DNA of 47,204 bases from Candidatus Woesearchaeota archaeon. GTDB lineage: Archaea; Nanobdellota; Nanobdellia; Pacearchaeales; GW2011-AR1. The notes below the pieces were generated by a model, which was not told where the DNA came from, did not search any database, and was given only the letters and a program-made list of their open reading frames with translations. Positions within the stretch are counted from its first letter, which is position 1, and every line of letters begins with the position of its first letter. Where the stretch lies: the NCBI GenBank assembly GCA_964544395.1, contig CAZJAO010000004.1, positions 1 through 47,204 of the forward strand, given 5' to 3'. Below, in pieces: positions 21,961 through 47,204 of this stretch. A program made the position numbers and the translations under genes.

Positions 21961-24249
21961 ATGCAATTTAAAGAGGGAGCTGCACTTTATTCTTACGAGA
22001 CCCAAAGAGAAGGGGGTGAAGATGTTCTATATGTAAATTACATGGGGGCTCCTTTTGTTCCAAGCATCGCTGATTCTCCTGAAGTTATGGAAAGAACTAT
22101 TGACGCTTTGATAGAAAATCCTAATGTTTCGAGAATTGTTTTTGTTCAGCAGAAAAATTACAATTATGATTTTCATGAAACATCGCTTCTTCTTGAAATT
22201 TCTCAATTATATGTTTACTTGATAAGGCAGGAAAGAATTTTATCAAAGGAAAAACTTGTGACTGGCTTTGACCAATTTTTTACTCAGAGATATAACGAGA
22301 TATTTTCTATTCTTTACTCTCTAAAGAGAGACCCCGTGGCTTCCTATCTTAATTTAAGAAATATTTTTGTTGAAGCGAGAATTTTTCTAGAGAAGCTTAG
22401 CCCCCAATATAAGTCAGACCAAAGCAATTACATAAGGTTGATTGAAAAAGTTTTTACCATGCTACAGGGCACGAAACTGATACAAGGACTCTTGAATTTT
22501 CTTCCAGATTATCAAAAAGGTGATAGAGAAATATATCATAGAATTTTTGAACCGGATGTAATTCCTAATTTTACTTTTACGCGACTTGTTTCTGAAATTC
22601 CGCAGGATGTGGAGATAGTTAATCAATATGAAATTTCAGGCGATGATTATGACAAATCGGTAGTTACTATATTGAGAAAAAGAAACGAATCAAAACTCCT
22701 TTATCATTTACTGCCCCCTGAGAATGTTCTTGATGAAGAACAGAATCTGCTTCTTAATCTTGCAAAGAATGTGCTTATCGAACATCAGCCAAAAGCGGAA
22801 GAATTTACAGATACCGAAAGAACAAGGCAAGTTTTCTTTAATATCGCAAAAGATTTACTTCAAGACTTAGCTCAGACAAAAGGCATAAATCTTAATTATT
22901 CTGATTTAAACAAATTATCCAAGATTCTAGTAAGACATACTATTGGGTTTGGGTTGATTGAGGTTTTATTGCAAGATAAAAATATTCAAGATATTGTTCT
23001 TAATGCGCCAATTCCAACAACTAGCATTTTCCTCAGACATGAAGTTTATGATGAATGTTATACAAATATTCTCCCTAGTCAGGAAGATGTAGACTCCTGG
23101 GCGGCAAAATTCAGAATAATTTCAGGGCGACCATTAGATGAAGCAAATCCTGTTCTTGATACTCAATTGGAAATTGACAAGATAAGTGCAAGAATTGCCA
23201 TTGTACAACAACCTCTTTCTCCCAATGGACTTGCTTATGCAATCAGAAGACATAGAGAAGAGCCATGGACCTTTTCATTATTTATTAAAAATAAGATGAT
23301 GAATCCCCTTTCTGCTGGATTAATGAGCTTTCTAGTTGATGGGGGAAGAACTATTTTAATTGCAGGAACTAGAAGTTCTGGAAAAACCTCTTTGCTTGGA
23401 GCTTTGATGCTTGAGATTTTACCTAGAACAAGAATAATTGTTGTTGAAGATACGCTTGAATTGCCTTTTGAATCTCTGAAGAAACTTAATTATGATATTC
23501 TGCAAATGAAAGTTCGTTCAGCATTGTTGAAAACCACCAATGAAATCTCTGCTGAAGATGGAATTAGAACAAGTCTGAGATTAGGGGACAGCAGTTTAAT
23601 TATTGGTGAAGTAAGAAGTGCTGAAGCAAAAGCTCTGTATGAAGCAATGAGAGTTGGTGCTTTGGCAAATACTGTAGCAGGAACAATTCACGGCGCTTCA
23701 CCATATGCTGTTTTCGACAGAGTTGTAAATGACTTAGAAGTTCCTGCAACTAGTTTCAAAGCGACAGATATTATTGCTGTTGCAAACCCCATTAAATCTC
23801 CTGATGGCCTTCATTCATGGAAGAGACTTTTGCAGATTACAGAGGTCAGGAAACACTGGCAGAAAGATCCTCTTGAAGAAAATGGTTTCAGCGATTTGGT
23901 AAAATACAATGTTGAAAAAGATACTCTTGAACCCAGCGAAGATTTGATTAATGGGGATAGCGAGGTTATCAAAGCTGTTGCAGAGAACGTTAGAGGGTGG
24001 GCAGGAAATTGGGATGCTGTTTATGATAATATTTTATTAAGAGCAAAAATAAAAGAAGAAATTGTAAAGACTGCAGAAAAAACCGGAAGACCTGAATTGC
24101 TGGAAGCAGCTTTTAATGTTTCTGCAAACCAAGAATTCCATTCAATTTCTGATACTGTCCGAGAAGAAATCGGTCTACCGCTTTCAAACAGAGTTTTTCC
24201 TGCTTGGCAGAAATGGCTTAATCAGGAAATAAAGAAAAAGAAATTATGA
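21961..24249 (+). CDS. Type IV pilus/secretion ATPase (VirB11/GspE/TadA-like), large form
   Basis: Walker A GTRSSGKT, Asp box VVEDTLEL, Walker B IIGEVRSAEA, His box GTIHG; long N-terminal extension. Confidence 0.92.
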   Translation: MQFKEGAALYSYETQREGGEDVLYVNYMGAPFVPSIADSPEVMERTIDALIENPNVSRIVFVQQKNYNYDFHETSLLLEISQLYVYLIRQERILSKEKLVTGFDQFFTQRYNEIFSILYSLKRDPVASYLNLRNIFVEARIFLEKLSPQYKSDQSNYIRLIEKVFTMLQGTKLIQGLLNFLPDYQKGDREIYHRIFEPDVIPNFTFTRLVSEIPQDVEIVNQYEISGDDYDKSVVTILRKRNESKLLYHLLPPENVLDEEQNLLLNLAKNVLIEHQPKAEEFTDTERTRQVFFNIAKDLLQDLAQTKGINLNYSDLNKLSKILVRHTIGFGLIEVLLQDKNIQDIVLNAPIPTTSIFLRHEVYDECYTNILPSQEDVDSWAAKFRIISGRPLDEANPVLDTQLEIDKISARIAIVQQPLSPNGLAYAIRRHREEPWTFSLFIKNKMMNPLSAGLMSFLVDGGRTILIAGTRSSGKTSLLGALMLEILPRTRIIVVEDTLELPFESLKKLNYDILQMKVRSALLKTTNEISAEDGIRTSLRLGDSSLIIGEVRSAEAKALYEAMRVGALANTVAGTIHGASPYAVFDRVVNDLEVPATSFKATDIIAVANPIKSPDGLHSWKRLLQITEVRKHWQKDPLEENGFSDLVKYNVEKDTLEPSEDLINGDSEVIKAVAENVRGWAGNWDAVYDNILLRAKIKEEIVKTAEKTGRPELLEAAFNVSANQEFHSISDTVREEIGLPLSNRVFPAWQKWLNQEIKKKKL

Positions 24250-24304
24250 TAATTTTTTAAAGTTGAATTATCTGTTAAAATTTAAGATAGAAGCATTCTA
24301 CAAA

Positions 24305-24838
24305 ATGAAAACAAAAAGTTGGGAAGAGCTTAACACTTCATATGCAAGAAAAGCAAAACCTCTTGAAGATGAAGCTTTACTTCTGAAGAGTAAACACTTG
24401 AAAGGATCTTCTTCAATAAACCCAGAGAGAATAGGCAAGATGTATGAAGATGCTGGAGATTTGCGAAGAAAAGCACATGATTTTATTGGAGCACAAGATG
24501 ATTACTTGGAAGCTAACAAATATGGTTATGCTTACAGTTCAGCAGACTCAGAGAGGGTTAGAAACAAGATAAATGGGCTAATCTCCGAGAAGAGACAAGC
24601 TCAAGGTTTACCCTTGAGAAGCTCGCTTGAGAAAAGAAGCTCCTTTGAGACTGTGCCTCAGAGATTATGGGCATATCTTTCAATCATCAGCCTTGCAGCA
24701 GCCTTGCTTTCAATTTCATTAAAATGGACTGGTTCGGTTGTAGGTCCTGCAGCTACAAACAACAAATGGATTGGACTTTGTTTATTTTTAGTGGGATGCA
24801 TGTTTACATTCTTCTACTTTAGAACAAAGAGGAAGTGA
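24305..24838 (+). CDS. Hypothetical protein with helical N-domain and C-terminal two-TM hairpin
   Basis: ATG at 24305; SLEKR...LSIISLAAALLSISLKWTGSVVG...WIGLCLFLVG. Confidence 0.65.
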   Translation: MKTKSWEELNTSYARKAKPLEDEALLLKSKHLKGSSSINPERIGKMYEDAGDLRRKAHDFIGAQDDYLEANKYGYAYSSADSERVRNKINGLISEKRQAQGLPLRSSLEKRSSFETVPQRLWAYLSIISLAAALLSISLKWTGSVVGPAATNNKWIGLCLFLVGCMFTFFYFRTKRK

Positions 24839-24886
24839 AAGTTTTATTAATTAATAAACTCTTTTTATAAAAAAGAGAAAATTAAT

Positions 24887-27073
24887 ATGCCTCCTTATCA
24901 ACAGCCCCCAATTCCGCCAGATGTTAATGAAATTCTAAAGAAATACGGCAACAAAATCGAAAGTCAGATTAATACTACTACGGTTCAGAATAATAGTGGA
25001 TACAGCCAAGCCTATTCCACGTTCAAAGAAGAAATGGCTCCTGCATGGGTACGATATGAAAAGTTGTGTCATAGCATCGGTAATATACTCAAGTTAAAAA
25101 TTTCTCAGAAAGATGAATTAAAAGTTAAGAGAAATATTGAAATTGCTCATCTTGACATTGAACCATGGCAGGCCGTGACTTTAAGCGCAGTAACTTTTTT
25201 CTTTGTTTTTATAATTGGACTTTTTATCACGGTTTCTGTTTATGTTTTCACCGGAAACGTGCCGGTTCTCTTTTTTATCATGCTAGTTGTTTCATCCCTG
25301 TTTTTGTATAATTATATCAGCGGCTTTCCAGAGAGATTTGCTAATCAGTGGAGATTGAAAGCATCTTCGCAAATGGTGCCCGCAATTTTGTATTTAGTAG
25401 TCTACATGAGACATACCTCTAATCTTGAAAGAGCCATTTCCTTTGCATCTGAACATCTGCAATATCCCCTTGCATTAGATTTCAAAAAAATATTTTATGA
25501 TGTTGAAATTGGAAAGTTCTCAACAATTAAGGACAGTCTCGATTATTACCTTGATGGCTGGAGAGATTATTCTCCGGAATTTATAGAATCATTTCACTTA
25601 ATTGAAAGCAGTTTGTTTGAACCAGATGACACGACCAGAGTTACAACTCTTGAAAAAGCATTGCAAGTAATTTTAGATGGTGTTTATGACAAGATGCTGA
25701 AATTTGTTCATGATGTCCGAAGTCCCATTCAAAGCACCTACATGCTCGGAACAACTTTGCCTGTTTTGGGAATGGCATTGCTCCCTCTTGCATCCTTGAT
25801 GGTTGGGAATTTGCTTAATGCGACCGACGTTTTTATTTTATACGATTTGATTATTCCTTTTCTTGCATTTTTCCTGATGAATAAATATTTACTATTAAGA
25901 CCGGGCGGTTATGGAGATACAAGCTTGCTTGAAAGAAATCCCCTTTATGGTGAATACAAAAGCAAGAAACCATATTACAAAGCGTTTCTCATATGCCTTC
26001 CTCTTTTCATCCTTGGATTTTTGCCTTTGATATGGGGTTTCACGCCTTTGCCGCAACTTTTAGGATTGCCATTAGATCCGACTTTTGCGCAATTAGGTTT
26101 GGGCATTTTTGGAAATAATGGTTTCTTTGGCTTTATTCCTTCAACAAGCGGTATAAAAGGACCCTTTGGTGCTGGAGCTTTGATACTTAGTTTATTTGTT
26201 CCGTTGGGACTTGCTTTATTCTTTTCAATGGCATACAAAGAGAAAACAAAAAATCTTATCAAGGAAAGAGACAATACAAAAGAACTTGAAGCAGAATTTA
26301 ATAATTCCTTATTCCAACTTGGAAACCGAATCGGCAACGGAACTCCTCCAGAATTAGTTTTTGGGAGAGTTGCAGAATCTACGACTGGATTGAAGACCTC
26401 TGATTTTTTCAAGAAAGTTAATTATAATATTCAGCAAGGTGGAATGAGTGTTGAGAATGCTATTTTTGATCCAACACGCGGAGCAATAAATTCTTACCCC
26501 TCAGACCTGATAGCTACAAGCATGAGAATACTTGTAGAAGCAGCAAAGAAAGGATTGAAAATTGCTGCAATTAGCATTATGAGCATTTCTGAATACGTGA
26601 AGAATATTCAAAAGATAGGAGATAGGCTGAGAGATTTGCTTGCAGAGATAATTTCAGATATGAAAAGCAACATGACTTTCCTTGCACCCCTTCTTGCAGG
26701 AGTTGTTGTCGGACTTGCAGCTATGATAACTACAATATTAACGAAATTGAATTTGGCTACTGCCGCAGGAGGAAGCGCCGCTGCTACAGGACTTGGAAAT
26801 ATTGGAGACATACTCTCCTTATTTGATTTGACAAATATGATTCCCCCTTATTATTTGCAAATCGCAATTGGAGTTTATCTCGTGGAGATTATATTTATCC
26901 TTACCGGAACTCTGGTAACAATTGAGTCTGGAGTAGATAAACTTGAGAAAGCTAATACTACGGGCAAGAATCTCAAGAGAGGAATCACTCTTTATTTTGT
27001 AGTTGCATTAATTTCTACTCTAGCATTGTTCCTTTTATCGTCACTTGTACTTGGCGGCCTGGGAACAAGCTAA
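24887..27073 (+). CDS. Pilus platform protein (TadB/TadC/ArlJ-like, two T2SSF-type domains)
   Basis: ILYLVVYMRHTSNLERAI and FQLGNRIGNGTPPELVF cytoplasmic domains, each followed by TM clusters; downstream of the ATPase. Confidence 0.85.
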   Translation: MPPYQQPPIPPDVNEILKKYGNKIESQINTTTVQNNSGYSQAYSTFKEEMAPAWVRYEKLCHSIGNILKLKISQKDELKVKRNIEIAHLDIEPWQAVTLSAVTFFFVFIIGLFITVSVYVFTGNVPVLFFIMLVVSSLFLYNYISGFPERFANQWRLKASSQMVPAILYLVVYMRHTSNLERAISFASEHLQYPLALDFKKIFYDVEIGKFSTIKDSLDYYLDGWRDYSPEFIESFHLIESSLFEPDDTTRVTTLEKALQVILDGVYDKMLKFVHDVRSPIQSTYMLGTTLPVLGMALLPLASLMVGNLLNATDVFILYDLIIPFLAFFLMNKYLLLRPGGYGDTSLLERNPLYGEYKSKKPYYKAFLICLPLFILGFLPLIWGFTPLPQLLGLPLDPTFAQLGLGIFGNNGFFGFIPSTSGIKGPFGAGALILSLFVPLGLALFFSMAYKEKTKNLIKERDNTKELEAEFNNSLFQLGNRIGNGTPPELVFGRVAESTTGLKTSDFFKKVNYNIQQGGMSVENAIFDPTRGAINSYPSDLIATSMRILVEAAKKGLKIAAISIMSISEYVKNIQKIGDRLRDLLAEIISDMKSNMTFLAPLLAGVVVGLAAMITTILTKLNLATAAGGSAAATGLGNIGDILSLFDLTNMIPPYYLQIAIGVYLVEIIFILTGTLVTIESGVDKLEKANTTGKNLKRGITLYFVVALISTLALFLLSSLVLGGLGTS

Positions 27074-27131
27074 TAGAACTACTCCCGCATACTCGGAAAA
27101 CATTTATTAATAAAACTCTTTTTATTTTAAA

Positions 27132-27281
27132 ATGAATAATAAGAGAGGAATCATCTCAGAATATCTTCCATGGCTCCTTATTGGAATTGCTATCCTTGTC
27201 ATTCTCATGATAACAATCTTTATTATAAAGGGACAAGGCTTTTCTTTGATAGATAAAATTAAAGGGATTTTCGGAGGATAA
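27132..27281 (+). CDS. 49-aa pilin-like peptide with class III signal (not in ORF track)
   Basis: MNNKRG|IISEYLPWLLIGIAILVILMITIFIIKGQGFSLIDKIKGIFGG*. Confidence 0.75.
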   Translation: MNNKRGIISEYLPWLLIGIAILVILMITIFIIKGQGFSLIDKIKGIFGG

Positions 27282-27449
27282 ATGTCTGAGCTTACAATTT
27301 CGGAACTAATAAAAATTATTCTTGGTGTAATTGTAGTTGTTGCAGTTATTCTTGCCTTGTATTTCTTTTTCAGAAATCAGGTAATAAGTTTCTTTAGCGG
27401 ATTTGGAGGAAATGCGTCTAAAATAATCCTATCTTTAATTGGAAAATGA
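27282..27449 (+). CDS. 55-aa pilin-like peptide without a basic leader (not in ORF track)
   Basis: MSELTISELIKIILGVIVVVAVILALYFFFRNQVISFFSGFGGNASKIILSLIGK*; abuts the upstream stop and overlaps the next start (ATGA). Confidence 0.7.
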   Translation: MSELTISELIKIILGVIVVVAVILALYFFFRNQVISFFSGFGGNASKIILSLIGK

Positions 27450-27976
27450 ACAAACGCAGAACCGGAGGTTCCGCACTTCCATTGATAAAAAATAAACGCG
27501 GATTTTTGTTGGGTGAAGAAACAGTAAAAATTATTATTGCAATAATAGCAATTCTTTTTCTTATTTTATTCATCGTTTATTTATACAATAACTTTACACA
27601 AAATAAAGATTTGACAAATGCAAAAAGTTCTCTTACTGATTTAATCAGCCAAATAAATTCAGGGGCAACTCAAGCTAACATTTACAATCCTAGCGGGTGG
27701 CTTTTATCTTCTTTTACTTCTTCCCCCGTGATGCCAAAAATGTGCACTACGAATAAGTGGATAAATTGTATCTGCTTATGCATAAAACCAGCTGGCTCGG
27801 TTCATCAGCCGCAGACAGCTTGTGACACTTCTGGGATCTGCCAGCAATCTGACTTCTCTCTGGTTGGAGATGCGACATTTATAGTAACCTGGCAAACAAA
27901 TAGCATAGAAATTTCAAATCCTCCTTTGCTTCTTTCAATCAATCAACAAACTAAAACTATTTCGAAAAGCACCTGA
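27446..27976 (+). CDS. Pilin-like protein with class III signal, 6 Cys
   Basis: KNKRG|FLLGEETVKIIIAIIAILFLILFIVYL. Confidence 0.8.
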   Translation: MNKRRTGGSALPLIKNKRGFLLGEETVKIIIAIIAILFLILFIVYLYNNFTQNKDLTNAKSSLTDLISQINSGATQANIYNPSGWLLSSFTSSPVMPKMCTTNKWINCICLCIKPAGSVHQPQTACDTSGICQQSDFSLVGDATFIVTWQTNSIEISNPPLLLSINQQTKTISKST

Positions 27977-28077
27977 TGGATTTTGAAACTTTGATAAAAT
28001 ATTTAATCTGGGTGGTATTTTTTGTTATTGTATTCGCAGGATTATATTTTATGTTTAGAAAATTTGGGTTAATCTAA
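27976..28077 (+). CDS. 33-aa single-TM peptide (not in ORF track)
   Basis: MDFETLIKYLIWVVFFVIVFAGLYFMFRKFGLI*; start and stop both overlap neighbours (TGATG, TAATG). Confidence 0.65.
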   Translation: MDFETLIKYLIWVVFFVIVFAGLYFMFRKFGLI

Positions 28078-28835
28078 TGAACAAAAAAGGAGAGATGACT
28101 ACCGAGCAAATTGTAATGATAATAGTTTTAATTGTAAGTTTTATTGTAATCTTATATTTTCTTCTCAGGTTGAATCTTGGCGGAACGACTAATGATGAAA
28201 TCTGCCACAATTCGGTTGTGCTTAAATCAAAAAGTGCAGGACTTGTTGGGGGATTAACCTGCAAAACTGATTATATTTGCATTTCAGGCGGAGGAACCTG
28301 TGCAAATCTTAATCCCACAACCACTGTAAATGTTGATGCTACAAACAAAGATGAAATAATGAAAGCCATAGCAGACCAAATGTCTAATTGCTGGTTCACA
28401 TTTGGTGAAGGAAATGCAAATTATCTTGGATTGGCAGAAAAATCTGTGCTTACAAAAACTACCTGCGCTTTATGTTCAACGATTGAATTTGATGACAAAA
28501 TCTTAAGCAAAAATTATGGCATAACTTATAGTGATTTTTATAATTATTTAATGAACACACACAAGGATAGCAGTCAAACGTACCTGAATTATCTTTTCGG
28601 TGTTAGTGATGTAAGTTCACTTGAAGCAAAAAATGGGGTCACAAATAAAGTAGTAAGCAGTACTCTTAATAATAATCTTATAACAAATACACAATATGGA
28701 ATTTTAACTGGATTTATTCAAGGATTTGCCGGAGGCTTACTTGGAAATACCTATCAAATTTATCCTACTTATTTACCGATTAATCAGGTGTCTTCACAGT
28801 TGCAATGTGCTGATTTTGTTACGACAGCATCTTAA
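28077..28835 (+). CDS. Pilin-like protein with class III signal, 8 Cys
   Basis: MNKKG|EMTTEQIVMIIVLIVSFIVILYFL. Confidence 0.82.
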   Translation: MNKKGEMTTEQIVMIIVLIVSFIVILYFLLRLNLGGTTNDEICHNSVVLKSKSAGLVGGLTCKTDYICISGGGTCANLNPTTTVNVDATNKDEIMKAIADQMSNCWFTFGEGNANYLGLAEKSVLTKTTCALCSTIEFDDKILSKNYGITYSDFYNYLMNTHKDSSQTYLNYLFGVSDVSSLEAKNGVTNKVVSSTLNNNLITNTQYGILTGFIQGFAGGLLGNTYQIYPTYLPINQVSSQLQCADFVTTAS

Positions 28836-28866
28836 CATTTATTAATCTCTATAATATTCTTTTTTC

Positions 28867-29274
28867 ATGATGAATAAGAGGGGCATCACATTACTTCTAG
28901 AAAATATTATTTTCATAATTCTCAATCTCATTTTTATTGCAATTCTAATCTTTTTTTTAATTTCGAAATCCGGAAGTGCAGGAGTTCTTGAAGAAAAGTA
29001 TGCAAAAGAAATCGCTCTCGTTCTTGATTCTGCCAAACCGGGGATGATGATTAACCTAAATATGGCAGATGCAATATCCACTGCTGAACAAAACCTCGGA
29101 AAAAATAATGTGAATGACAGCATTGTAACTATTTCCCAAAATGTTGTAACTGTAAAGCTAAGCGAACAGGGGGGGTATTCCTATTCTTTCTTTAATGACA
29201 TAAAGATTTCAAATCATTATCTCGATAAAACCGGCAATCAATATCTGTTCTTTATAGGTGATTACAATGGTTAG
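28867..29274 (+). CDS. Pilin-like protein with class III signal
   Basis: MMNKRG|ITLLLENIIFIILNLIFIAILIFFL. Confidence 0.8.
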   Translation: MMNKRGITLLLENIIFIILNLIFIAILIFFLISKSGSAGVLEEKYAKEIALVLDSAKPGMMINLNMADAISTAEQNLGKNNVNDSIVTISQNVVTVKLSEQGGYSYSFFNDIKISNHYLDKTGNQYLFFIGDYNG

Positions 29275-30460
29275 AACCAATCCCTTATCCAAAAAGAAAG
29301 GTGCAGACCAAATACTTACTGTTTATTGGTTTGTAATAATCTTCATCGTGGCTGGTGCGGTGGTTTATATGGCGTATCTATTTTATGGTTCTCCTTTTGA
29401 TGCGCGAAATATTGAAGGCAGTCTTTTGGGCAATCAAATTGCAAATTGCTTGACAAATAAAGGATATATTATTGACCAAGCTTTCTTACCTGACTTTCAA
29501 AATAATTTTCTTCAGGATTGCCATTTGAATTTCAGTACGGAAGATTTTTCGGACTGGAAAACTAATACCCAATATTATGCTCAAGTGGTGGTTTACAAAT
29601 TTAATTCTAATGCACAGCAGCAATCTTATGGTGAGTCGGATAGTTCTATTTCGAGCAATATTGGCAATCAAGTGTTAACTGTGTCTGCGGGAAACATAAA
29701 TTTGAAGACTGCCTGGGAACTTATAACTCCCTCAACTGGATTTTTGGGCCTGAATTTGAATAAAAGAAATGTTAACACTATTGTAATTCATGATACTGAA
29801 GGGCCAACGGCTCTTGGGGCAATCCAAGCAATATCGACTGCAGATTTGAGCATACATTATATTATTGATAGAGATGGAACGATTATTTCTCCAGATAATG
29901 TTAATCAGTTTGCTCCTGCACAATATGCTAATGCACTTGTTCCAGAAAGTACTATTGCACAAGATGCTGGATGTTACGACACACGATCAAAAACTCAATG
30001 GCCTATTTGTTCTGCAACCTGTACTGACTCAAATGGTCTAATTGCGACAAGCTGCCAAAAGTTGAGCAATCCGCCTCCGAATGAATTTTGCTGTTTGGAA
30101 TTTAATGTAAAATCCATCGGAATAGAACTAGTTAATTTAGGGAATGAGCCTTACCCTGATACGCAAATAAAATCTCTTATAAATCTGGTTTCAGACATTT
30201 CCTCAAGGTATAATATTCCTTTAGACCGGGCACACATCGTCGGACATTATCAGACTTCAAGTTACAAGGTTGACCCGGGAACACAATTTCCTTGGGACAC
30301 TTTCATACAAGAATTAACATCAAGGGGGGCGGTAGCTATCGCTTCTTCAACTGCAAATACGGAGCAGCAGCAAAGAAACATTTATGCCCTTGATAAGAGT
30401 GGAAATCAATATGTTATCCAAATTTTAACTCTCGTAGGCAAAACTGAAAAAAATGTTTAA
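29267..30460 (+). CDS. Pilin-like protein (class III signal) with an inserted N-acetylmuramoyl-L-alanine amidase (Amidase_2/AmpD-like) domain
   Basis: SKKKG|ADQILTVYWFVIIFIVAG signal; amidase motifs TIVIHDT, SIHYIIDRDG, NVKSIGIE, YPDTQIKSL..L, IVGH, KVDPG.QFPW; ATG at 29267. Confidence 0.85.
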   Translation: MVRTNPLSKKKGADQILTVYWFVIIFIVAGAVVYMAYLFYGSPFDARNIEGSLLGNQIANCLTNKGYIIDQAFLPDFQNNFLQDCHLNFSTEDFSDWKTNTQYYAQVVVYKFNSNAQQQSYGESDSSISSNIGNQVLTVSAGNINLKTAWELITPSTGFLGLNLNKRNVNTIVIHDTEGPTALGAIQAISTADLSIHYIIDRDGTIISPDNVNQFAPAQYANALVPESTIAQDAGCYDTRSKTQWPICSATCTDSNGLIATSCQKLSNPPPNEFCCLEFNVKSIGIELVNLGNEPYPDTQIKSLINLVSDISSRYNIPLDRAHIVGHYQTSSYKVDPGTQFPWDTFIQELTSRGAVAIASSTANTEQQQRNIYALDKSGNQYVIQILTLVGKTEKNV

Positions 30461-30914
30461 TCAAAACAAAAGAGCACAAATAGCAGAGACAACAACATGG
30501 ATAGTTGCGACTTTGATAATTTTCGTTATACTCATAGTCACGCTCTTTATAGCTTCCCTTATGGGACATACAAAAAATCTTCCTCAACCGTTGGGGGCAG
30601 ATATATTTGCAGATAAATCTCTGACCGCATATTTATTGACAAAAGGCACCAATGGGATCCCGATTTATACCACAATTAGTGCCGAAGGGCAATTGAATAG
30701 TTTCAATGGAAATCTTGCCAAGCAGATATTTCTTAATTTCTATAGCGGATTTTATCGTGATAGACTATATTTGGGGGTTCTTGGACAGGATAACGATTAT
30801 TTTAACTCCGGAGCAATTTCTCATAAAGTATTTGAGCCAGGATTTGTTTTCTATTCGATTAATGTAGGCAATAATAAATTTGTTCAATTTACAGCATTAC
30901 CATGGCCACAATAA
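30453..30914 (+). CDS. Pilin-like protein with class III signal
   Basis: MFNQNKRA|QIAETTTWIVATLIIFVILIV. Confidence 0.8.
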   Translation: MFNQNKRAQIAETTTWIVATLIIFVILIVTLFIASLMGHTKNLPQPLGADIFADKSLTAYLLTKGTNGIPIYTTISAEGQLNSFNGNLAKQIFLNFYSGFYRDRLYLGVLGQDNDYFNSGAISHKVFEPGFVFYSINVGNNKFVQFTALPWPQ

Positions 30915-31255
30915 ACAAAAGAGGAGATGTTTCAATAACAATATTAGTAATTGGAGTTTTTGCTATCTGCACAATTGCAATTGTAACTTTTCTTCTATAT
31001 AATCAAACAATTCAGACAGGTTTTGTTAATGTTGGTGTTTTTGAAAATTTGTCAGCACAAGTAGAAAATTATTATTTCTATATTAATTCGGGATTATCTC
31101 CGCAACAAGCTGCAAATGATATTGGTGCACAATTGCAAGGCAATCAATTAATTTTTAATACCGAACAAAAAGGAGATCCTGGTGTTTTTGGATTTATAAG
31201 CAGCAATTCTAATACGATTGTCTCGGTGAAATACATATACGATCTAAGTAAATAA
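30902..31255 (+). CDS. Pilin-like protein with class III signal
   Basis: MATINKRG|DVSITILVIGVFAICTIAIVTF. Confidence 0.78.
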   Translation: MATINKRGDVSITILVIGVFAICTIAIVTFLLYNQTIQTGFVNVGVFENLSAQVENYYFYINSGLSPQQAANDIGAQLQGNQLIFNTEQKGDPGVFGFISSNSNTIVSVKYIYDLSK

Positions 31256-31289
31256 AAAGTTTTATAAACAAATTAAACTTAATCAAAGA

Positions 31290-31742
31290 ATGAATAAGAG
31301 AGGTCAAGAATTAAGCACCAGCACGATAATTCTCATTATTTTAGGTGTAATAATTCTTGTAGTTCTTGTTATCGGTTTCACAATAGGCTGGAACAAAATT
31401 ATTCCTTATGTTTCTCAAAGCAATATAAATACTGTTTCGACACAATGCCTTTCTGCATGTTCTACAGCAAGTGTTTACGATTTTTGCTCGAGAACATTTG
31501 ACTTAAATTCTGGTACTACTACAATCAGAAACTCAACATGCAATTATCTCGCTCAAAAGCAGACTCAATATGGAATAACTCCATGCACCGCGATTCCATG
31601 TAGCAATATTCTCTTCTTTGATAATACCAACAAGCAGTATAAAACAATTGCTGATTTGAGCAACAGCCAGTGCGCAGCCAATTCTGGAAAGACACTTCAG
31701 GTTTTGATTGGAGATACTGTACAGAGCATTACCTGCCCATAA
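31290..31742 (+). CDS. Pilin-like protein with class III signal, 8 Cys
   Basis: MNKRG|QELSTSTIILIILGVIILVVLVIGF. Confidence 0.82.
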   Translation: MNKRGQELSTSTIILIILGVIILVVLVIGFTIGWNKIIPYVSQSNINTVSTQCLSACSTASVYDFCSRTFDLNSGTTTIRNSTCNYLAQKQTQYGITPCTAIPCSNILFFDNTNKQYKTIADLSNSQCAANSGKTLQVLIGDTVQSITCP

Positions 31743-31755
31743 ACATAATTCTAAA

Positions 31756-31866: not shown

Positions 31867-31893
31867 TTTAAACAAATAACTGCTGATTCTTTT

Positions 31894-32739
31894 ATGATTG
31901 AGGTGATTTTCCTTTTAGCACTTGCATTTATCTGGATTTTATTTGCAGCAATATCTGATGTAAGAACAACTGAAATTCCCAACTGGCTAAATTTTTCTTT
32001 GATAATCTTTGCTTTGGGTTTTAGATTTTTCTATTCTTTATTTTCTGCAGGAAATTTCAGTTTTTTTTATCAAGGGCTGATTGGGACAGCAATTTTCTTT
32101 GCTCTTGGAACTGGATTATACTACGGCCGGGCATTTGCAGGTGGAGATGCAAAACTCATGATTGCTCTTGGTCCAATACTGTCTTTTTCAACCAATTTTT
32201 TAACGAATCTTGAAATTGCAATCTCTTTCTTATTTTTATTTTTAGTTTCAGGTTCTGCTTATAGCATTTTGGCAAGCACTTATTTTGCATTCAAGAATCA
32301 TAAAAATTTCAAGAAGGAGTTTAAAAATGCTTACAGGACGAATTTGAAATTTACTATCATTATAATGGCTCTGGGAATATTGATAATGGTTGGGGGAATT
32401 ATTTTTAATGGATTGCTATTATATTTGGGAATCATAATTTTCATTCTTCCTTTACTATATCTTTATACAAAATCGGTTGATGAAACGATGAGAAAGAGAA
32501 TAAGCCCTAAAGATTTAATGGAAGGGGATTGGCTATATCGCGATGTGAAGGTGGGAAATAAATCTATAAAAGCAAATTGGGGCGGTCTGACTCAAGAAGA
32601 CATCAATCTTCTTAAAAAGAAAAACGAATATGTTTTGATAAAAAAAGGAATAGCTTTCGGACCGGTTTTTCTTATTGGCTTTCTCCTACTGATTTATTTT
32701 TATTTGATTAATACCGGTTTATGGAATTCTCTTTGGTAA
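31894..32739 (+). CDS. Prepilin/class III signal peptidase (A24, PibD/FlaK-like)
   Basis: Two catalytic Asp motifs ISDVRTTEIPN and FAGGDAKL; C-terminal DLMEGDW...IAFGPVF domain. Confidence 0.9.
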   Translation: MIEVIFLLALAFIWILFAAISDVRTTEIPNWLNFSLIIFALGFRFFYSLFSAGNFSFFYQGLIGTAIFFALGTGLYYGRAFAGGDAKLMIALGPILSFSTNFLTNLEIAISFLFLFLVSGSAYSILASTYFAFKNHKNFKKEFKNAYRTNLKFTIIIMALGILIMVGGIIFNGLLLYLGIIIFILPLLYLYTKSVDETMRKRISPKDLMEGDWLYRDVKVGNKSIKANWGGLTQEDINLLKKKNEYVLIKKGIAFGPVFLIGFLLLIYFYLINTGLWNSLW

Positions 32740-45080: not shown

Positions 45081-45118
45081 AAAAATAGAAGCAGAATAAG
45101 GATTATTAAATTTTGGGT

Positions 45119-45712
45119 TTATCTGAGAACAAGGTTTTTCTTGAAATGTTCTTCTGTAATTTTCCAAACTGCAAATGCAATGAAAAGCGCACCAATTAAA
45201 TCAATACTATAATGCCCTCTACTCAAAATCATAGATGCAACTTCTATTATCAAAAGAATCAAGAAATAAATCTTCCAATTTTTGGATTTGTCTTTTAGTG
45301 CAAATAAAAAGAAAAGTAACACTGTTCCGATATGCCCGCTTGGAAACATTCCTCCATTAGGCAGGAAAGCTAAATTCAGACCGGGAATGGGGTGGGGATT
45401 TCCTAGAGGGGTTAAGTAAATGAATGCGGCTCTTAGCAGATTATAAATTCCGATAACGACAGCATAAAAAGGAAAGTTCTTTATTCTCTTTTTAGAGAAC
45501 ATAAAAAACAAAAATGAAACTACTGAAAGGATAAGAATTATATCTGCAAGCCATAGAATATTTATGAAAGGAGTATAGTTAAATAAAAAATCTTGGGCAA
45601 CAGGAAGATTTGGATAAACTTTATACAAATTTATATCAGCAAAAGAGGCCACAGCCATAGAAAAAATAAAGAAAGCAAGTGCAAGGCTAACAATCACCCA
45701 TCTCTTTTTCAT
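45119..45712 (-). CDS. PAP2-superfamily membrane enzyme (sphingomyelin-synthase/IPC-synthase-like phosphotransferase)
   Basis: LRAAFIYLTPL, GGMFPSGH and SRGHYSID catalytic motifs; about 5-6 TM. Confidence 0.75.
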   Translation of the reverse strand: MKKRWVIVSLALAFFIFSMAVASFADINLYKVYPNLPVAQDFLFNYTPFINILWLADIILILSVVSFLFFMFSKKRIKNFPFYAVVIGIYNLLRAAFIYLTPLGNPHPIPGLNLAFLPNGGMFPSGHIGTVLLFFLFALKDKSKNWKIYFLILLIIEVASMILSRGHYSIDLIGALFIAFAVWKITEEHFKKNLVLR

Positions 45713-45948
45713 ATCTTCTCTACAATTTGAAACTTTAAAAATTATAGGCCTGAACTTAGATAAATTATTATTCTTTAATCAATAAAATAAATTTTATTTT
45801 AGTGCCCCTAAAAAATAATACAACCATTCTTTTCAGATTTTTATTTTCAAGATTATTTTTTATTTTTATTAATATCGTCGGAAAAAAGAATAATTGAATC
45901 TTCTCAAATTATCCAAAGATTTATAAATATAAACTTTCTATTTATGAA

Positions 45949-47204
45949 ATGAAAAAGAAAAGAGGGATGCTCGTGCCATTGTTGGTACTTGCTGGACTCT
46001 TAGTATTGGCTGGTGTTTATCTCTTATTCATTGCTCCTTCTGTTGTTATAGTTCCTCCACAGAAAATTGCGGTTCTAGTTCCTATTGTAAAAACTCCAGT
46101 TCCTGCTGTTCTTTTTGTTGGAGTAACTCAAGTTAATCCTTTGGGTGCCGCAACAGGACAGGTACTTAGCAATAACGTTATTGTAACCTTTAGTGAAGCA
46201 ATGGATCCTGCAACAATTAATGCGAGCACATTCCAAGTAAGAGGACCAGGTAACATAACTATACCGGGGAATTATACTTCTGATACGACCGGAAAGATTT
46301 GGACATTTAATCCAACATCTAATTTTCAATATAGTTCATCATATAATATGACGATTACTACTGGCGTTAAGGGGAGTACTGGTGATTCCTTGCCCGAGAA
46401 TTTTGTTTGGGGCTTTGCAACTAGTAATTCGCCAGCTTCACGTACTGGAGGAGTAAGTGGAGGTAGTGGGGGAGGATCTTCTGGAGGAAGCGCTGCACCG
46501 GTAATTCCGCCTGTCGGAACGGGTTCACTTTTATCACCTGTAAATCTTGGAAATGCTACTGGTTTCGCTCTTTTAGGGGGTACTGGAATCTCTGATACTG
46601 TTCCGGCATCTTCTGCTATCGTTGGAAATGTTGGAGTAAGTCCTGCTGCTGGTTCATTTATAACAGGCGTATCATGCACAAAAGTGGCTGGAACAATCTA
46701 TGAAACAAATACAGGATATACTGGTGGTTTTGATTCAAACGCAACTTGTGCTGCAGGTACTGGAGCTAATATCACTTTGGTAAACAATGCAGTGGCTGAT
46801 GAATTGACTGCATATAATACTGCTAGAGGATTATCAAATCCTACTGCTACAGAACTATATACTGGGAATCTTGGTGGACAGACATTAACGCCAGGACTTT
46901 ACAAATGGAGCACTGCTGTAACAATACCCACAAGTGTAACTCTTGATTGCCAAGGTAATACCAGTGCAGTTTTCGTATTCCAAATAGCACAAACTCTTGT
47001 TGTCAGCAATGGTCAAAGTGTAAATTTGATTGGTAGTTGCCAAGCTAAGAACATTTTCTGGGAAGTCGATACGCAAACAACACTTGGAACTACATCTGTT
47101 TTCAATGGAAATATCCTTAGTGGAACAGCAGTAGTGATAAATAGCGGTGCAACATTGAATGGAAGAGCATTTGCACAGAGTGCGGTTACATTAAGCGGTA
47201 ATGC
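45949..47204 (+). CDS. Secreted adhesin: class III-like signal, Ig-like (Big_5-type) domain, Gly/Ser linker and DUF3494 ice-binding-like domain; runs off the right edge and is not in the ORF track
   Basis: Stop-free frame from ATG 45949 to the end: MKKKRG|MLVPLLVLAG..., VTFSEAMDPATIN..TFNP..Y..TITTGVK..G..L..NFVWGFAT, then PVNLGNATGFALLGGTGI, GNVGVSP, LGGQTLTPGLYKW, VFVFQI, AKNIFWEV, FNGNIL, GATLNGRAFAQSAVTL. Confidence 0.9.
   Translation, partial: MKKKRGMLVPLLVLAGLLVLAGVYLLFIAPSVVIVPPQKIAVLVPIVKTPVPAVLFVGVTQVNPLGAATGQVLSNNVIVTFSEAMDPATINASTFQVRGPGNITIPGNYTSDTTGKIWTFNPTSNFQYSSSYNMTITTGVKGSTGDSLPENFVWGFATSNSPASRTGGVSGGSGGGSSGGSAAPVIPPVGTGSLLSPVNLGNATGFALLGGTGISDTVPASSAIVGNVGVSPAAGSFITGVSCTKVAGTIYETNTGYTGGFDSNATCAAGTGANITLVNNAVADELTAYNTARGLSNPTATELYTGNLGGQTLTPGLYKWSTAVTIPTSVTLDCQGNTSAVFVFQIAQTLVVSNGQSVNLIGSCQAKNIFWEVDTQTTLGTTSVFNGNILSGTAVVINSGATLNGRAFAQSAVTLSGN

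What the first reader, a model, noticed from the sequence alone, without database searches (positions are those of the whole stretch)
45949..47204. Ice-binding (DUF3494)-like adhesin with a prepilin-type signal
Seen: the ORF, missed by the track, has MKKKRG followed directly by a hydrophobic helix, the same signal type as the pilins, then an Ig-like domain, a GGVSGGSGGGSSGG linker and a DUF3494-type beta-solenoid. Established: DUF3494 proteins bind ice, are widely transferred horizontally, and often sit on Ig stalks as adhesins. Inference: a second specialised cargo for the A24 peptidase/pilus, giving adhesion to ice, minerals or glycans. It may point to a cold habitat or to a non-ice binding role.
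Basis: partly seen in the sequence, partly recalled or inferred. Interest (0 to 1): 0.7.

Follow-up and report, generated by a model that had tools for sequence, protein, structure and literature searches.

The report
Tethered ice-binding-like adhesin, DPANN archaeon
The gene is real: it encodes a cell-surface protein of a tiny DPANN archaeon that carries an ice-binding-type (DUF3494) head on an Ig-like stalk, but its N-terminus looks like an ordinary membrane anchor rather than a conserved pilin-type signal, so it is an ordinary new member of a known adhesin design.

Summary
The ORF at 45949..47204 is open for 418 codons and has Big_5 (E=7e-16) and DUF3494/Ice_binding (E=4e-56) domains. An identical metagenome contig gives the full gene: 424 aa, with only 6 codons missing from the window and no further domain. 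The AlphaFold model shows a short N-terminal helix, a disordered Pro-rich spacer, an Ig sandwich, a disordered Gly/Ser linker and a beta-solenoid that superposes on FfIBP (TM 0.91).

The host is a Nanoarchaeota (Woese-/Pacearchaeota-type) DPANN archaeon. It does encode a type IV pilus locus and an A24 peptidase, 13 kb away.

The pilin-signal reading is weak:
- K-R-G before the helix fits the class III rule, but only 3 of 6 orthologues keep a charged residue followed by G or A there (one with an atypical Arg at +1).
- The motif arises by chance in 8-20% of comparable N-termini.
- The N-terminus is unlike the seven pilin-type N-termini in the window.
- The gene and its orthologues sit beside SRP54, never beside pilus genes.

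I read it as a membrane-tethered adhesin. Its head is a mobile module: 89% identical to a relative whose stalk is 41-48% identical, with a sharp breakpoint in the linker. Whether the ligand is ice is untested.

The parts
45920..45929 (+). TATA-box-like element (TTTATAAATA) about 25 nt upstream of the ATG; implies a leaderless or short-leader archaeal transcript and supports 45949 as the true start
   Evidence: Read directly from the sequence. The inference rests on general knowledge of archaeal promoters.
45949..47204 (+). CDS of the Big_5-DUF3494 surface protein, 418 of 424 codons; the last 6 codons (AVTKPI) and the stop lie beyond the window
   Evidence: Full length from identical contig L171 3001..4275.
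45949..45966 (+). n-region MKKKRG (aa 1-6); candidate class III site K-R-G|M
   Evidence: Not conserved in orthologues. Chance level 8-20%.
45967..46047 (+). Hydrophobic H-domain (aa 7-33, MLVPLLVLAGLLVLAGVYLLFIAPSVV); predicted helix at aa 8-26; most likely an N-in/C-out membrane anchor
   Evidence: and AF2 model. No AxA-type SPase I site, unlike the related heads, which have plain Sec signals.
46048..46122 (+). Pro-rich spacer (aa 34-58, IVPPQKIAVLVPIVKTPVPAVLFVG); the VIVPPxKxAVxVP core is conserved in 3 of the 4 aligned sequences (degenerate in P0019); modelled as disordered up to aa 48
   Evidence: Alignment A1; pLDDT below 50 for aa 28-48.
46123..46422 (+). Big_5 Ig-like beta-sandwich (aa 59-158), the stalk
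   Evidence: PF13205, E=7.3e-16. AF2 strands 54-157 at pLDDT about 90. Foldseek matches to Ig-like domains of S-layer SbsC and alpha-2-macroglobulin.
46423..46536 (+). Flexible linker (aa 159-196) including GGVSGGSGGGSSGG (aa 167-180, nt 46447-46488) and AAPVIPPVG; holds the recombination breakpoint between stalk and head (about aa 190-200)
   Evidence: pLDDT below 50 for aa 161-191. Nucleotide identity to the L001 orthologue steps from about 0.6 to about 0.9 here.
46537..47204 (+). DUF3494 / ice-binding-like beta-solenoid head (aa 197-418 of 424) with its long alpha-helix (aa 275-294). Cys243/Cys267 align with the two capping-head Cys of FfIBP; there is an extra pair at Cys334/Cys364
   Evidence: PF11999, E=3.7e-56. 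PDB sequence hits 9li0/9lhn 7e-51 and 4nu3/4nu2. AF2 pLDDT above 90. Foldseek TMt 0.91, rmsd 1.8 A to 4nu2. Cys positions.
31894..32739 (+). Context only: A24 prepilin peptidase, 13 kb upstream; needed for the rival (class III) reading
   Evidence: PF01478, E=1.7e-11.
21961..31742 (+). Context only: type IV pilus locus. It holds a T2SSE ATPase (21961-24249), a T2SSF-like platform protein (24887-27073), six small pilin-like ORFs and an Amidase_2 protein with a pilin-type N-terminus

Best explanation
The gene encodes a 424-aa cell-surface protein of a DPANN (Nanoarchaeota, Woese-/Pacearchaeota-type) archaeon.

1. The short positive n-region and the roughly 25-residue hydrophobic segment send it to the Sec translocon (SRP54 is the neighbouring gene) and insert it N-in/C-out.
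2. The hydrophobic segment then stays in the membrane as the anchor. It most likely stays uncleaved. Even if the 6-residue leader were clipped by the A24 peptidase, the H-domain would still tether the protein.
3. Outside the cell, a Pro-rich spacer, one Big_5 Ig-like domain and a roughly 35-residue Gly/Ser/Pro linker form a flexible stalk.
4. The stalk presents a disulfide-stabilised DUF3494 beta-solenoid. The flat face of that solenoid binds an ordered surface.

I commit to ice as the ligand the head can bind, because it keeps the fold and the cap disulfide of proven ice-binding proteins. The protein would then hold the very small cell against ice or shape ice next to its membrane in seasonally frozen wet soil.

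The head is a mobile cassette. It has recently been exchanged by recombination in the linker between related archaea. The same head sequence is also found behind a plain cleavable Sec signal.

Shown: the domains, the fold, the full length, the taxon, the synteny and the mosaicism. Inferred: the topology, the lack of cleavage, the ligand and the physiological role.
For: Domains and fold:
- Pfam Big_5 and Ice_binding are far above their cut-offs.
- AF2 gives helix 8-26, disordered 28-48, an Ig sandwich at 54-157, disordered 161-191, and a solenoid at 197-418 with helix 275-294, pLDDT above 90.
- Foldseek gives TMt 0.91, rmsd 1.8 A and 42% identity to FfIBP 4nu2, and 47-48% identity to the Ca. 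Cryosericum odellii ice-binding proteins 9lhn/9li0 (sequence hits).
- Cys243 and Cys267 align with the FfIBP cap cysteines.
- A VKOR gene for extracytoplasmic disulfide formation lies two genes away.

Full length: 424 aa with no C-terminal anchor.

Anchor rather than cleaved signal:
- The uncharged segment is about 27 residues long and has no AxA-type site.
- About 30 related DPANN, CPR and other heads carry short h-regions ending VHA|AQ or ALA|AGP.
- Five of the six orthologues keep n-region + TM + [L/A/K]P[S/A]; in P0104 a His replaces the Pro.

Design: it matches the published ice-adhesin model of anchor, Big tether and DUF3494 head (PMC9957290, PMC11645318).

Taxon: PolD, eIF2-alpha and SRP54 are present, and SRP54 is 89% identical to a Nanoarchaeota MAG.

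Mobile head, compared with orthologue P0001:
- TM+linker 41%, Big_5 48%, head 89% amino-acid identity.
- Identity at four-fold synonymous sites is 78% in the head, 33% in the N-part and 44% in SRP54 (Fisher p about 1e-8).
- Nucleotide identity steps up at aa 190-200.
- L010 carries the same head behind a Sec signal.
Against: - No experimental or predictor-based test of cleavage was possible. K-R-G|M does fit the minimal class III rule, and the peptidase is encoded in the same genome.
- The conserved P[S/A] at the end of the H-domain could instead be a poor SPase I c-region.
- Ice binding is untested. The NCBIfam ice-binding equivalog scores 186 bits against a cut-off of 400.
- The three FfIBP T-A/G-x-T/N positions (motif named in PMC5334608) read TGIS, TAVV and SAVT here.
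- Heads 50-58% identical occur in groundwater and deep-mine DPANN and CPR genomes, where ice never forms.
- The literature allows non-ice substrates for DUF3494 (PMC11645318, PMC12337378).
- The closest species-level relative lacks the gene at this locus, so it is accessory.
- The habitat of the source samples was not established.
Confidence: 0.5

Rival explanations
1. Class III (prepilin-type) substrate. The A24 peptidase at 31894-32739 cuts after Gly6. The H-domain is then extracted by the pilus machinery at 21961-27073, so the Ig-DUF3494 module is displayed on or at the tip of a type IV pilus. This would be a 'functionalised' filament, like the Sulfolobus bindosome or a modular pilin.
For: - Arg at -2 and Gly at -1 come directly before a hydrophobic domain of at least 20 residues, within the first 10 residues. 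This fits the rule given in PMC4371748 and PMC3387779.
- The peptidase, ATPase, platform protein and pilins are all in the window.
- The same locus carries an Amidase_2 enzyme on a pilin-type N-terminus, so this lineage does graft cargo onto such leaders.
- A 2026 preprint reports thousands of archaeal binding proteins with SPIII sites, many encoded away from pilus loci (10.64898/2026.04.22.720090).
- One Woesearchaeota DUF3494 protein (L267) starts MNKEG|IATIIIALIVV.
Against: - The cleavage motif is not conserved. P0001 (MKKRVVASIV) and L011 (MKKVAVIAV) have no candidate site. P0104 has Gln at -2. P0023 would leave Arg at +1.
- The chance rate for K/R-G is 8%, and 20% for K/R-G/A/S. The non-pilin DUF1328 neighbour also starts MNKRGQ.
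- All seven in-locus pilin-type N-termini have a polar stretch with Asp or Glu at +1 to +6 and an Ile-rich H-domain (23% Ile). The target has neither (7% Ile, and Pro at +4).
- The conserved DPANN family KRGQVTIFIII is not matched.
- The helix ends at residue 26 and is followed by a disordered Pro-rich spacer, so it does not pack on the globular domain.
- There are no pilus genes next to the gene or next to any orthologue.
- Foldseek returns no pilin hit.
Confidence: 0.15
2. Ordinary Sec signal removed by signal peptidase I near ...FIAPS|VV (aa 32/33). This would release a soluble Ig-DUF3494 protein that acts extracellularly, for example as an ice-recrystallisation inhibitor, or that re-attaches through the conserved VIVPPQK segment.
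For: - Five of the six orthologues keep a helix-breaking Pro followed by a small residue (PS or PA) at the end of the H-domain; P0104 has HS.
- Secreted DUF3494 heads with Sec signals are the norm in related DPANN and CPR genomes.
- The L010 variant carries such a signal.
Against: - The h-region is about 23-27 residues, against roughly 12-16 in the related cleaved signals.
- The -3/-1 residues are A/S, K/A or L/S rather than the A/V-x-A seen in the related proteins.
- A stalk of spacer, Ig domain and linker makes little sense on a free protein. The published tether model needs an anchor (PMC9957290).
Confidence: 0.12
3. Same tethered architecture, but the physiological ligand is not ice. The solenoid face would bind a host-cell surface or S-layer glycan (DPANN archaea are episymbionts), extracellular polysaccharide or a mineral surface.
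For: - The closest heads in species-representative genomes are concentrated in ultra-small episymbiont lineages: Micrarchaeia, Woesearchaeota, Aenigmatarchaeota and many CPR/Patescibacteria. They also occur in anaerobes.
- Those genomes include groundwater and deep-mine MAGs that never freeze.
- The literature states that DUF3494 proteins from non-freezing habitats may bind other substrates (PMC11645318; 'substrate-binding' in PMC12337378).
- The NCBIfam ice-binding equivalog cut-off is not reached.
Against: - The head is 42-48% identical to proteins crystallised as ice-binding proteins and superposes at 1.8 A.
- The cap disulfide is conserved.
- No non-ice ligand has been demonstrated for a PF11999 domain in the papers read here.
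- Many relatives come from fen, palsa and bog MAGs, which are habitats that freeze.
Confidence: 0.35

Closest known systems
Bacterial DUF3494 'ice adhesin' design, e.g. Shewanella frigidimarina SfIBP_1 (PDB 6bg8) and Big-domain-containing IBPs of sea-ice bacteria (PMC9957290, PMC11645318)
   Same: A DUF3494 solenoid is held away from the cell by bacterial Ig-like (Big) domains. The proposed role is to tether the cell to ice. Foldseek hits 6bg8 at E=3e-12.
   Different: - The host here is an archaeon (DPANN).
- It has a single Big_5 rather than tandem Big domains.
- The anchor is an N-terminal hydrophobic helix rather than a lipoprotein, outer-membrane or C-terminal sorting signal.
- Sequence identity to the SfIBP_1 head is only about 31%.
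FfIBP (Flavobacterium frigoris, 4nu2) and the Ca. Cryosericum odellii SMC5 ice-binding proteins (9lhn, 9li0, 9lhs)
   Same: - Same fold (TMt 0.91 to 4nu2; 0.83-0.84 to 9lhn/9li0), at 42-48% identity.
- The long alpha-helix lies beside a triangular solenoid.
- The capping-head Cys pair aligns with that of FfIBP.
   Different: - Those are single-domain secreted proteins; this one is grafted onto a TM-Ig stalk.
- There is an extra Cys334/Cys364 pair.
- The FfIBP T-A/G-x-T/N positions are only partly kept (TGIS, TAVV, SAVT).
- Activity is untested.
Archaeal class III signal-peptide cargo: Sulfolobus bindosome sugar-binding proteins and 'SPIII binding proteins' (PMC4371748; bioRxiv 10.64898/2026.04.22.720090)
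   Same: A non-pilin extracellular binding domain sits behind a short positive leader and one hydrophobic helix. The gene lies away from the pilus locus. An A24 peptidase is present in the genome.
   Different: The defining cleavage motif is not conserved among orthologues, and the N-terminus does not resemble the genome's own pilins. Membership is therefore not established.
Modular type IV pilins, e.g. Streptococcus sanguinis PilB (PMC8179133)
   Same: Same concept: an adhesive module grafted C-terminally onto a pilin-type N-terminus.
   Different: In modular pilins a complete pilin fold precedes the module. Here the helix is 19 residues long and is followed by a disordered spacer, with no pilin globular domain.

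Membership tests
DUF3494 / Ice_binding (PF11999) | Profile match above Pfam's gathering score | tested here: met
   190.5 bits (window) and 192.8 bits (full length, profile 2-208 of 208), against a cut-off of 28.7.
DUF3494 / Ice_binding (PF11999) | Discontinuous triangular beta-solenoid braced by one long alpha-helix | tested here: met
   AF2 pLDDT above 90, helix at 275-294. Foldseek TMt 0.91 and rmsd 1.8 A to 4nu2; all of the top 31 hits are DUF3494 ice-binding proteins.
DUF3494 / Ice_binding (PF11999) | FfIBP-type capping-head cysteine pair | tested here: met
   Cys243 and Cys267 align with the two FfIBP cap cysteines in the phmmer alignment. Disulfide formation itself is inferred.
DUF3494 / Ice_binding (PF11999) | Ice-binding activity (thermal hysteresis, recrystallisation inhibition, ice shaping) | not testable with these tools
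   Needs recombinant protein. Only indirect evidence is available: 42-48% identity to crystallised ice-binding proteins.
NCBIfam NF045625 IBP_CFB (ice-binding protein, equivalog) | Score at or above the curated equivalog cut-off | tested here: not met
   186 bits against a cut-off of 400. The protein is related to that Bacteroidota equivalog group but is not a member of it.
Big_5 bacterial Ig-like domain (PF13205) | Profile match above the gathering score, and a beta-sandwich fold | tested here: met
   59.2 bits against 23.6. AF2 strands at 54-157, pLDDT about 90.
Archaeal class III (prepilin-type) signal peptide / type IV pilin-like protein | Charged residue at -2 and G/A/S at -1 directly before an H-domain of about 20 residues near the N-terminus (PMC4371748, PMC3387779) | tested here: met
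   K-R-G|MLVPLLVLAGLLVLAGVYLLFIA. The chance rate is 8-20%.
Archaeal class III (prepilin-type) signal peptide / type IV pilin-like protein | The cleavage motif is conserved among orthologues, as expected for an essential processing site | tested here: not met
   P0001 and L011 have no site. P0104 has Gln at -2. P0023 has KG|R and P0019 has KA|M.
Archaeal class III (prepilin-type) signal peptide / type IV pilin-like protein | N-terminus resembles the pilins it would co-assemble with | tested here: not met
   The seven in-locus N-termini have Asp or Glu at +1 to +6 and Ile-rich H-domains. The target has none of this and has Pro at +4. It also does not match the DPANN KRGQVTIFIII family.
Archaeal class III (prepilin-type) signal peptide / type IV pilin-like protein | Prepilin peptidase and assembly ATPase/platform protein encoded in the genome | tested here: met
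   Peptidase_A24 (31894-32739), T2SSE (21961-24249) and a weak T2SSF match (24887-27073).
Archaeal class III (prepilin-type) signal peptide / type IV pilin-like protein | N-terminal helix continuous with, and packed on, the globular domain | tested here: inconclusive
   AF2 gives helix 8-26 and then a low-confidence Pro-rich segment at 28-48. The prediction is for a monomer out of its membrane or filament context.
Archaeal class III (prepilin-type) signal peptide / type IV pilin-like protein | Actual cleavage by the A24 peptidase and incorporation into a filament | not testable with these tools
   Needs biochemistry. FlaFind, SignalP and DeepTMHMM were not available, and the FlaFind paper was not held.
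Sec signal peptide cleaved by signal peptidase I | Short h-region followed by a c-region with small residues at -3 and -1 (A/V-x-A type) | tested here: not met
   By inspection only. The uncharged stretch is 27 residues long and ends IAPS. Related heads with real Sec signals end VHA|AQ or ALA|AGP.
Tethered ice-adhesin architecture (anchor + Ig tether + DUF3494) | A membrane or cell anchor, one or more Ig-like spacer domains and a terminal DUF3494 head in a single polypeptide | tested here: met
   The design is described in PMC9957290 and PMC11645318.

The most novel reading that the evidence does not exclude
The K-R-G leader is functional, and this DPANN archaeon displays an ice-binding-type solenoid on its type IV pilus. 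The protein would then be a modular class III 'cargo pilin' alongside the pilin-leader Amidase_2 in the pilus locus, and the filament would act as a long-reach grappling hook for ice, mineral or host-cell surfaces. The swappable head cassette would let related lineages re-tool the same stalk.
Probability: 0.12. Interest if true: 0.7.

Novelty: new member of a known kind. Interest (0 to 1): 0.3.

Why it matters
DUF3494 proteins are the commonest microbial ice-binding proteins, and the design of anchor, Ig tether and head has been proposed as an ice adhesin mainly for polar bacteria. This gene shows the same design in an ultra-small DPANN archaeon, where no paper in the searched library links DPANN with ice binding.

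It also gives a clean natural example of the head behaving as a recombination cassette. The stalk is inherited with the locus, while the head has been recently exchanged with a breakpoint in the Gly/Ser linker.

The related heads are concentrated in DPANN and CPR episymbionts, including some from habitats that never freeze. That pattern raises a testable question: is this clade of 'ice-binding' domains really used for cell-to-surface or cell-to-host attachment?

For the scan, the practical lesson is that a single K/R-G in front of a TM helix is not evidence for a prepilin signal. Orthologue conservation and similarity to the local pilins are needed as well.

Tried and rejected
1. A profile search with the N-terminal 161 aa of four orthologues (A1) against the 5.8-billion-protein set returned only generic Big_5 fragments and no new orthologues.
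2. A search with the first 81 aa alone returned nothing.
3. Scans with A1 gave little. Genome contigs yielded one further orthologue (L011). Metagenome contigs yielded the full-length self contig (L171) and the already known P0023 locus; every other hit was a bacterial lipoprotein.
4. Eighty SRP54-anchored loci from related DPANN genomes were screened by tblastn for a syntenic IBP gene. None had one, and the nearest relative (L091) has FtsY-PAP2-SRP54 with no insert.
5. Sample identifiers (SRR8693975, SRR8464963, 3300028653, 3300028666, Ga0265323, Ga0265336) occur in no paper in the library. A guess at the project (a sedge rhizosphere/peat study, from my unverified memory) could not be confirmed. 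Habitat temperature therefore stays unknown.
6. The original FlaFind paper is not held. The rule was taken from reviews instead. By my recollection of the FlaFind regular expression, Pro at +4 would fail it, but that is unverified.
7. N-glycosylation sequons: 8 found against 6.5 +/- 2.2 expected from composition, so there is no enrichment.
8. Base composition as a sign of foreign origin: the gene's GC is 41.6% against 35% for its neighbours, but its GC3 is 22% (neighbours 28%). The excess GC comes from amino-acid composition, not from a GC-rich donor. I rejected this as evidence of recent import from outside AT-rich lineages.
9. L010/P0004 as a true paralogue: the contig is unrelated for 277 nt and then 100% identical to L171 into the downstream gene, with all 4 mismatches at the junction. 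It could be a recombinant allele or an assembly chimera. I therefore use it only as supporting evidence and rest the mosaicism claim on L001.
Full report
**Observation.** The + strand is open from the ATG at 45949 for 418 codons, to the end of the window. The ORF listing omits the ORF because it runs off the end. A TATA-like TTTATAAATA at 45920-45929 lies about 25 nt upstream of the ATG, the usual archaeal spacing for a leaderless or short-leader mRNA (sequence; spacing from general knowledge). MKKKRG is therefore very probably the real N-terminus.
- Pfam finds Big_5 at aa 59-158 (E=7.3e-16) and Ice_binding/DUF3494 at aa 209-418 (E=3.7e-56, profile positions 2-205 of 208).
- The linker GGVSGGSGGGSSGG is at aa 167-180.
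- NCBIfam's Bacteroidota ice-binding equivalog is hit at 186 bits, well below its cut-off of 400.

**Full gene.** Three other assemblies that carry the neighbouring PAP2 gene all break inside this gene (L007, L008, L009). L007 breaks at exactly the window's end. A metagenome scan found JGI contig Ga0265322_10000448 (L171), identical over the first 161 aa, which reads through. The protein is 424 aa and ends ...AVTLSGNAVTKPI*, with no further domain and no C-terminal anchor. A 65-aa DUF1328 membrane protein follows, and then FtsY on the other strand.

**Host and context.** The window encodes PolD DP2, eIF2-alpha, a Cdc45/GAN-type DHH protein, Bud32 and SRP54, and has about 35% GC. Its SRP54 is 89% identical to that of a Nanoarchaeota MAG, and 70-84% identical to many Woese-/Pacearchaeota MAGs. 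The host is therefore a DPANN archaeon.

The window does contain a type IV pilus locus at 21961-32739:
- a T2SSE ATPase;
- a T2SSF-like platform protein;
- six small pilin-like ORFs;
- an Amidase_2 protein with a pilin-type N-terminus;
- an A24 peptidase.

The target gene lies 13 kb from that locus. Its upstream neighbours, on the opposite strand, are PAP2, SRP54, VKOR and Bud32. In the P0023 lineage the orthologue lies divergently next to SRP54 and is again followed by DUF1328 (L003-L006). In the P0001 lineage it lies next to Bud32, PMM, VKOR and SRP54. No pilus gene is nearby in any of these. The closest species-representative genome has FtsY-PAP2-SRP54 with nothing in between (L091). None of 80 SRP54-anchored DPANN loci holds a relative. 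The IBP-DUF1328 pair is therefore an accessory insert at a recurrent site.

**Structure.** AlphaFold2 with a 43-sequence alignment gave mean pLDDT 79.8:

| Segment (aa) | Prediction |
|---|---|
| 8-26 | helix |
| 28-48 | low confidence |
| 54-157 | confident beta-sandwich |
| 161-191 | low confidence |
| 197-418 | solenoid at pLDDT above 90, with a long helix at 275-294 |

Foldseek against the PDB returned 31 DUF3494 ice-binding proteins first. FfIBP 4nu2 scored TMt 0.91, rmsd 1.8 A and 42% identity. The Ca. Cryosericum odellii ice-binding proteins 9lhn and 9li0 scored 47-48% identity. The hits also included ColAFP, LeIBP, TisAFP, EfcIBP and SfIBP_1. The Ig domain matched S-layer, macroglobulin and L,D-transpeptidase Ig-like domains. 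No pilin appeared. The sequence search agrees. Cys243 and Cys267 align with the two capping-head cysteines of FfIBP. Cys334 and Cys364 form an extra pair, also seen in a Woesearchaeota relative. At the three FfIBP positions that carry the T-A/G-x-T/N motif (motif named in PMC5334608) the window has TGIS, TAVV and SAVT, close to the Cryosericum proteins. This is compatible with ice binding but is not a test of it.

**The signal.** Reviews give the rule for archaeal class III signals: G/A/S at -1, a charged residue at -2, and then the H-domain (PMC4371748, PMC3387779). K-R-G|MLVPLLVLAG... satisfies that rule. Four lines of evidence argue against it being an evolved prepilin signal.
1. *Orthologues.* P0001 starts MKKRVVASIVIGG and L011 starts MKKVAVIAVIGGG; neither has a candidate site. 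P0104 has NKQG|M, with an uncharged -2. P0023 has MKKG|RIVW, with Arg at +1. P0019 has KKKA|MSRN. Five of the six keep a short MKK-type n-region, a hydrophobic helix of about 22 residues with a central GG or AG, and [L/A/K]P[S/A]; in P0104 a His replaces the Pro. The window, P0001 and P0023 also share a VIVPPxKxAVxVP spacer.
2. *Chance.* Among 98 DPANN ORFs with K/R followed by at least 20 uncharged hydrophobic residues, 20 have G next. Thirteen of those are one family, KRGQVTIFIII, which is what a conserved class III N-terminus looks like in this lineage. Among the other 85 ORFs, G follows in 8% and G/A/S in 20%. The DUF1328 neighbour, a non-pilin two-helix membrane protein, also begins MNKRGQSGWLVW.
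3. *Local pilins.* The seven pilin-type N-termini in the locus (KRG|QELSTST.., KRG|ITLLLEN.., KRG|DVSIT.., KKG|EMTTEQ.., KRG|FLLGEET.., KRA|QIAETT.., KKG|ADQIL..) all have Asp or Glu within +1 to +6 and Ile-rich H-domains (23% Ile, 0% Pro). The target has no acidic residue, 7% Ile, 31% Leu, and Pro at +4.
4. *Shape.* The helix is short and is followed by a Pro-rich segment that is mostly modelled as disordered, so it does not run into a globular pilin domain.

A survey of 44 related heads in DPANN, CPR, methanogen and Chloroflexi genomes shows that most are exported by plain Sec/SPase I signals (..VHA|AQ..ALA|AGP). A few have N-terminal TM anchors. Only L267 (MNKEG|IATIII) looks class III-like, and it too has housekeeping neighbours.

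Compared with those real Sec signals, the target's 27-residue uncharged stretch ending IAPS is a poor SPase I substrate. An uncleaved signal-anchor is therefore the best reading. I put cleavage of this particular protein by the A24 peptidase at roughly one in three, because the minimal motif is present. Functional incorporation into pili is nearer one in eight. In either case the H-domain would keep the protein in the membrane unless it is actively assembled.

**Mobile head.** Identity to orthologue P0001, which comes from a different sample:

| Region | Amino-acid identity |
|---|---|
| TM + spacer | 41% |
| Big_5 | 48% |
| Head | 89% |
| SRP54 | 82% |
| VKOR | 58% |
| Bud32 | 66% |

 At four-fold degenerate sites of conserved residues, the head is 78% identical (93/119). 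The N-part is 33% identical (18/55), SRP54 44% (54/123), VKOR 50% and Bud32 39%. Fisher's exact test gives p about 1e-8. Sliding nucleotide identity steps from about 0.6 to about 0.9 at aa 190-200, just after the Gly/Ser run. The head has therefore been exchanged recently between lineages whose stalks and genomes diverged long before.

The other orthologues (P0023, P0104, P0019, L011) carry an extra Big_2 domain, and their heads are only 42-59% identical.

A 942-bp contig (L010/P0004) has a Sec signal and the start of a different head for 277 nt (GC3 0.39). It then matches L171 at 100% for 665 nt, into the DUF1328 gene, and its only 4 mismatches lie at the junction. This is either a recombinant allele or an assembly chimera across a shared repeat. 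Either way it explains the repeated contig breaks.

The gene's GC (41.6%) exceeds that of its neighbours, but its GC3 (22%) does not. The codon usage is native to AT-rich genomes.

**Function.** The architecture is the published ice-adhesin design of membrane anchor, Big tether and DUF3494 head (PMC9957290, PMC11645318). I therefore read the protein as a tethered surface adhesin whose solenoid face binds an ordered surface.

Whether that surface is ice is open.
- *For ice:* every characterised PF11999 protein found here is an ice binder. Identity to those is 42-48%, the cap disulfide is conserved, and many relatives come from fen, palsa and bog MAGs.
- *Against ice:* heads 50-58% identical sit in groundwater and deep-mine DPANN and CPR genomes. 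The literature accepts non-ice substrates for DUF3494 in non-freezing habitats (PMC11645318, PMC12337378).
The concentration of this head clade in episymbiotic ultra-small lineages makes host-surface attachment a serious alternative. The habitat of the source samples could not be retrieved.

**Comparison and novelty.** This is a new member of a known kind: a DUF3494 adhesin-type protein, here in a DPANN archaeon with an N-terminal helix anchor. No paper in the library links DPANN with ice binding. The idea of class III cargo proteins that functionalise archaeal filaments is already in the literature (PMC4371748; 10.64898/2026.04.22.720090). Membership of that class is not established here, because a defining feature, a conserved processing site, was tested and not met.

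**Verdict.** Interest is modest (0.3). The head-cassette mosaicism and the DPANN/CPR distribution are the most useful by-products.

Noticed in passing
window 29258-30460 (+): Inside the pilus locus there is a 400-aa ORF with a pilin-type N-terminus (..SKKKG|ADQILTVYWFVIIFIVAGAVV) fused to an N-acetylmuramoyl-L-alanine amidase domain (Amidase_2, E=1.5e-21). This is a peptidoglycan-cutting enzyme on a class III-type leader in an archaeon that has no murein, which suggests action on bacterial neighbours or hosts.
   Followed up: partly
window 21961-32739 (+): Complete-looking type IV pilus locus: a 762-aa T2SSE ATPase, a 728-aa weak T2SSF-like platform protein, six small pilin-like ORFs (starts at 27446, 28077, 28867, 30453, 30902 and 31290) with K/R-G/A sites followed by Asp or Glu within +1 to +6, and a 281-aa A24 peptidase.
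   Followed up: partly
L171 4284-4481; L010 896-942; L004 11494-11682: A 62-65-aa DUF1328 membrane protein (PF07043, E=6e-12) directly follows the IBP gene in two lineages whose IBP proteins are only about 55% identical. It is a conserved gene pair of unknown meaning. Its N-terminus, MNKRGQSGWLVW, mimics a class III site.
   Followed up: partly
L010 1-942 (ENA ERZ27245405 k141_2028456): Hybrid contig. The first 277 nt encode a Sec signal and the start of a different DUF3494 head (GC3 0.39). The next 665 nt are 100% identical to the window locus, running into the downstream gene, and all 4 mismatches lie at positions 269-277. It is either a recombinant allele or an assembly chimera, and it probably explains why four assemblies break inside this gene.
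   Followed up: partly
L251-L321: The head's nearest relatives among species-representative genomes (up to 58% identity over most of the head) are concentrated in DPANN (Micrarchaeia, Woesearchaeota, Aenigmatarchaeota) and CPR/Patescibacteria. They also occur in Methanoperedens/Methanosarcinales, Dehalococcoidia and Cryosericum. Several come from groundwater or a deep mine. Almost all carry plain Sec signals.
   Followed up: partly
L091 1-1800 (MAG MFD01689.bin.2.81): The closest species representative (SRP54 89% identical) has FtsY, PAP2 and SRP54 adjacent, with a 30-nt gap where the window genome carries IBP + DUF1328. The pair is therefore an insertion or deletion polymorphism between close relatives.
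   Followed up: yes
window 43268-43717 (-): A VKOR homologue (E=2.8e-18) lies two genes from the IBP gene. It would provide extracytoplasmic disulfide formation for the four-Cys head. The head's second Cys pair (334/364) recurs in a Woesearchaeota relative (L267).
   Followed up: no
L094 and L116: Contigs filed under an Omnitrophota MAG and a Bacillota MAG carry SRP54 genes 80% and 70% identical to this DPANN archaeon's. They are probably mis-binned DPANN contigs.
   Followed up: no
window 43719-45167 (-) and 45119-45712 (-): The longest SRP54 ORF (TTG start, 482 aa) overlaps the end of the PAP2 gene by 49 nt. Gene calls on identical contigs use a later start (453 aa), which is probably the true one.
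   Followed up: no
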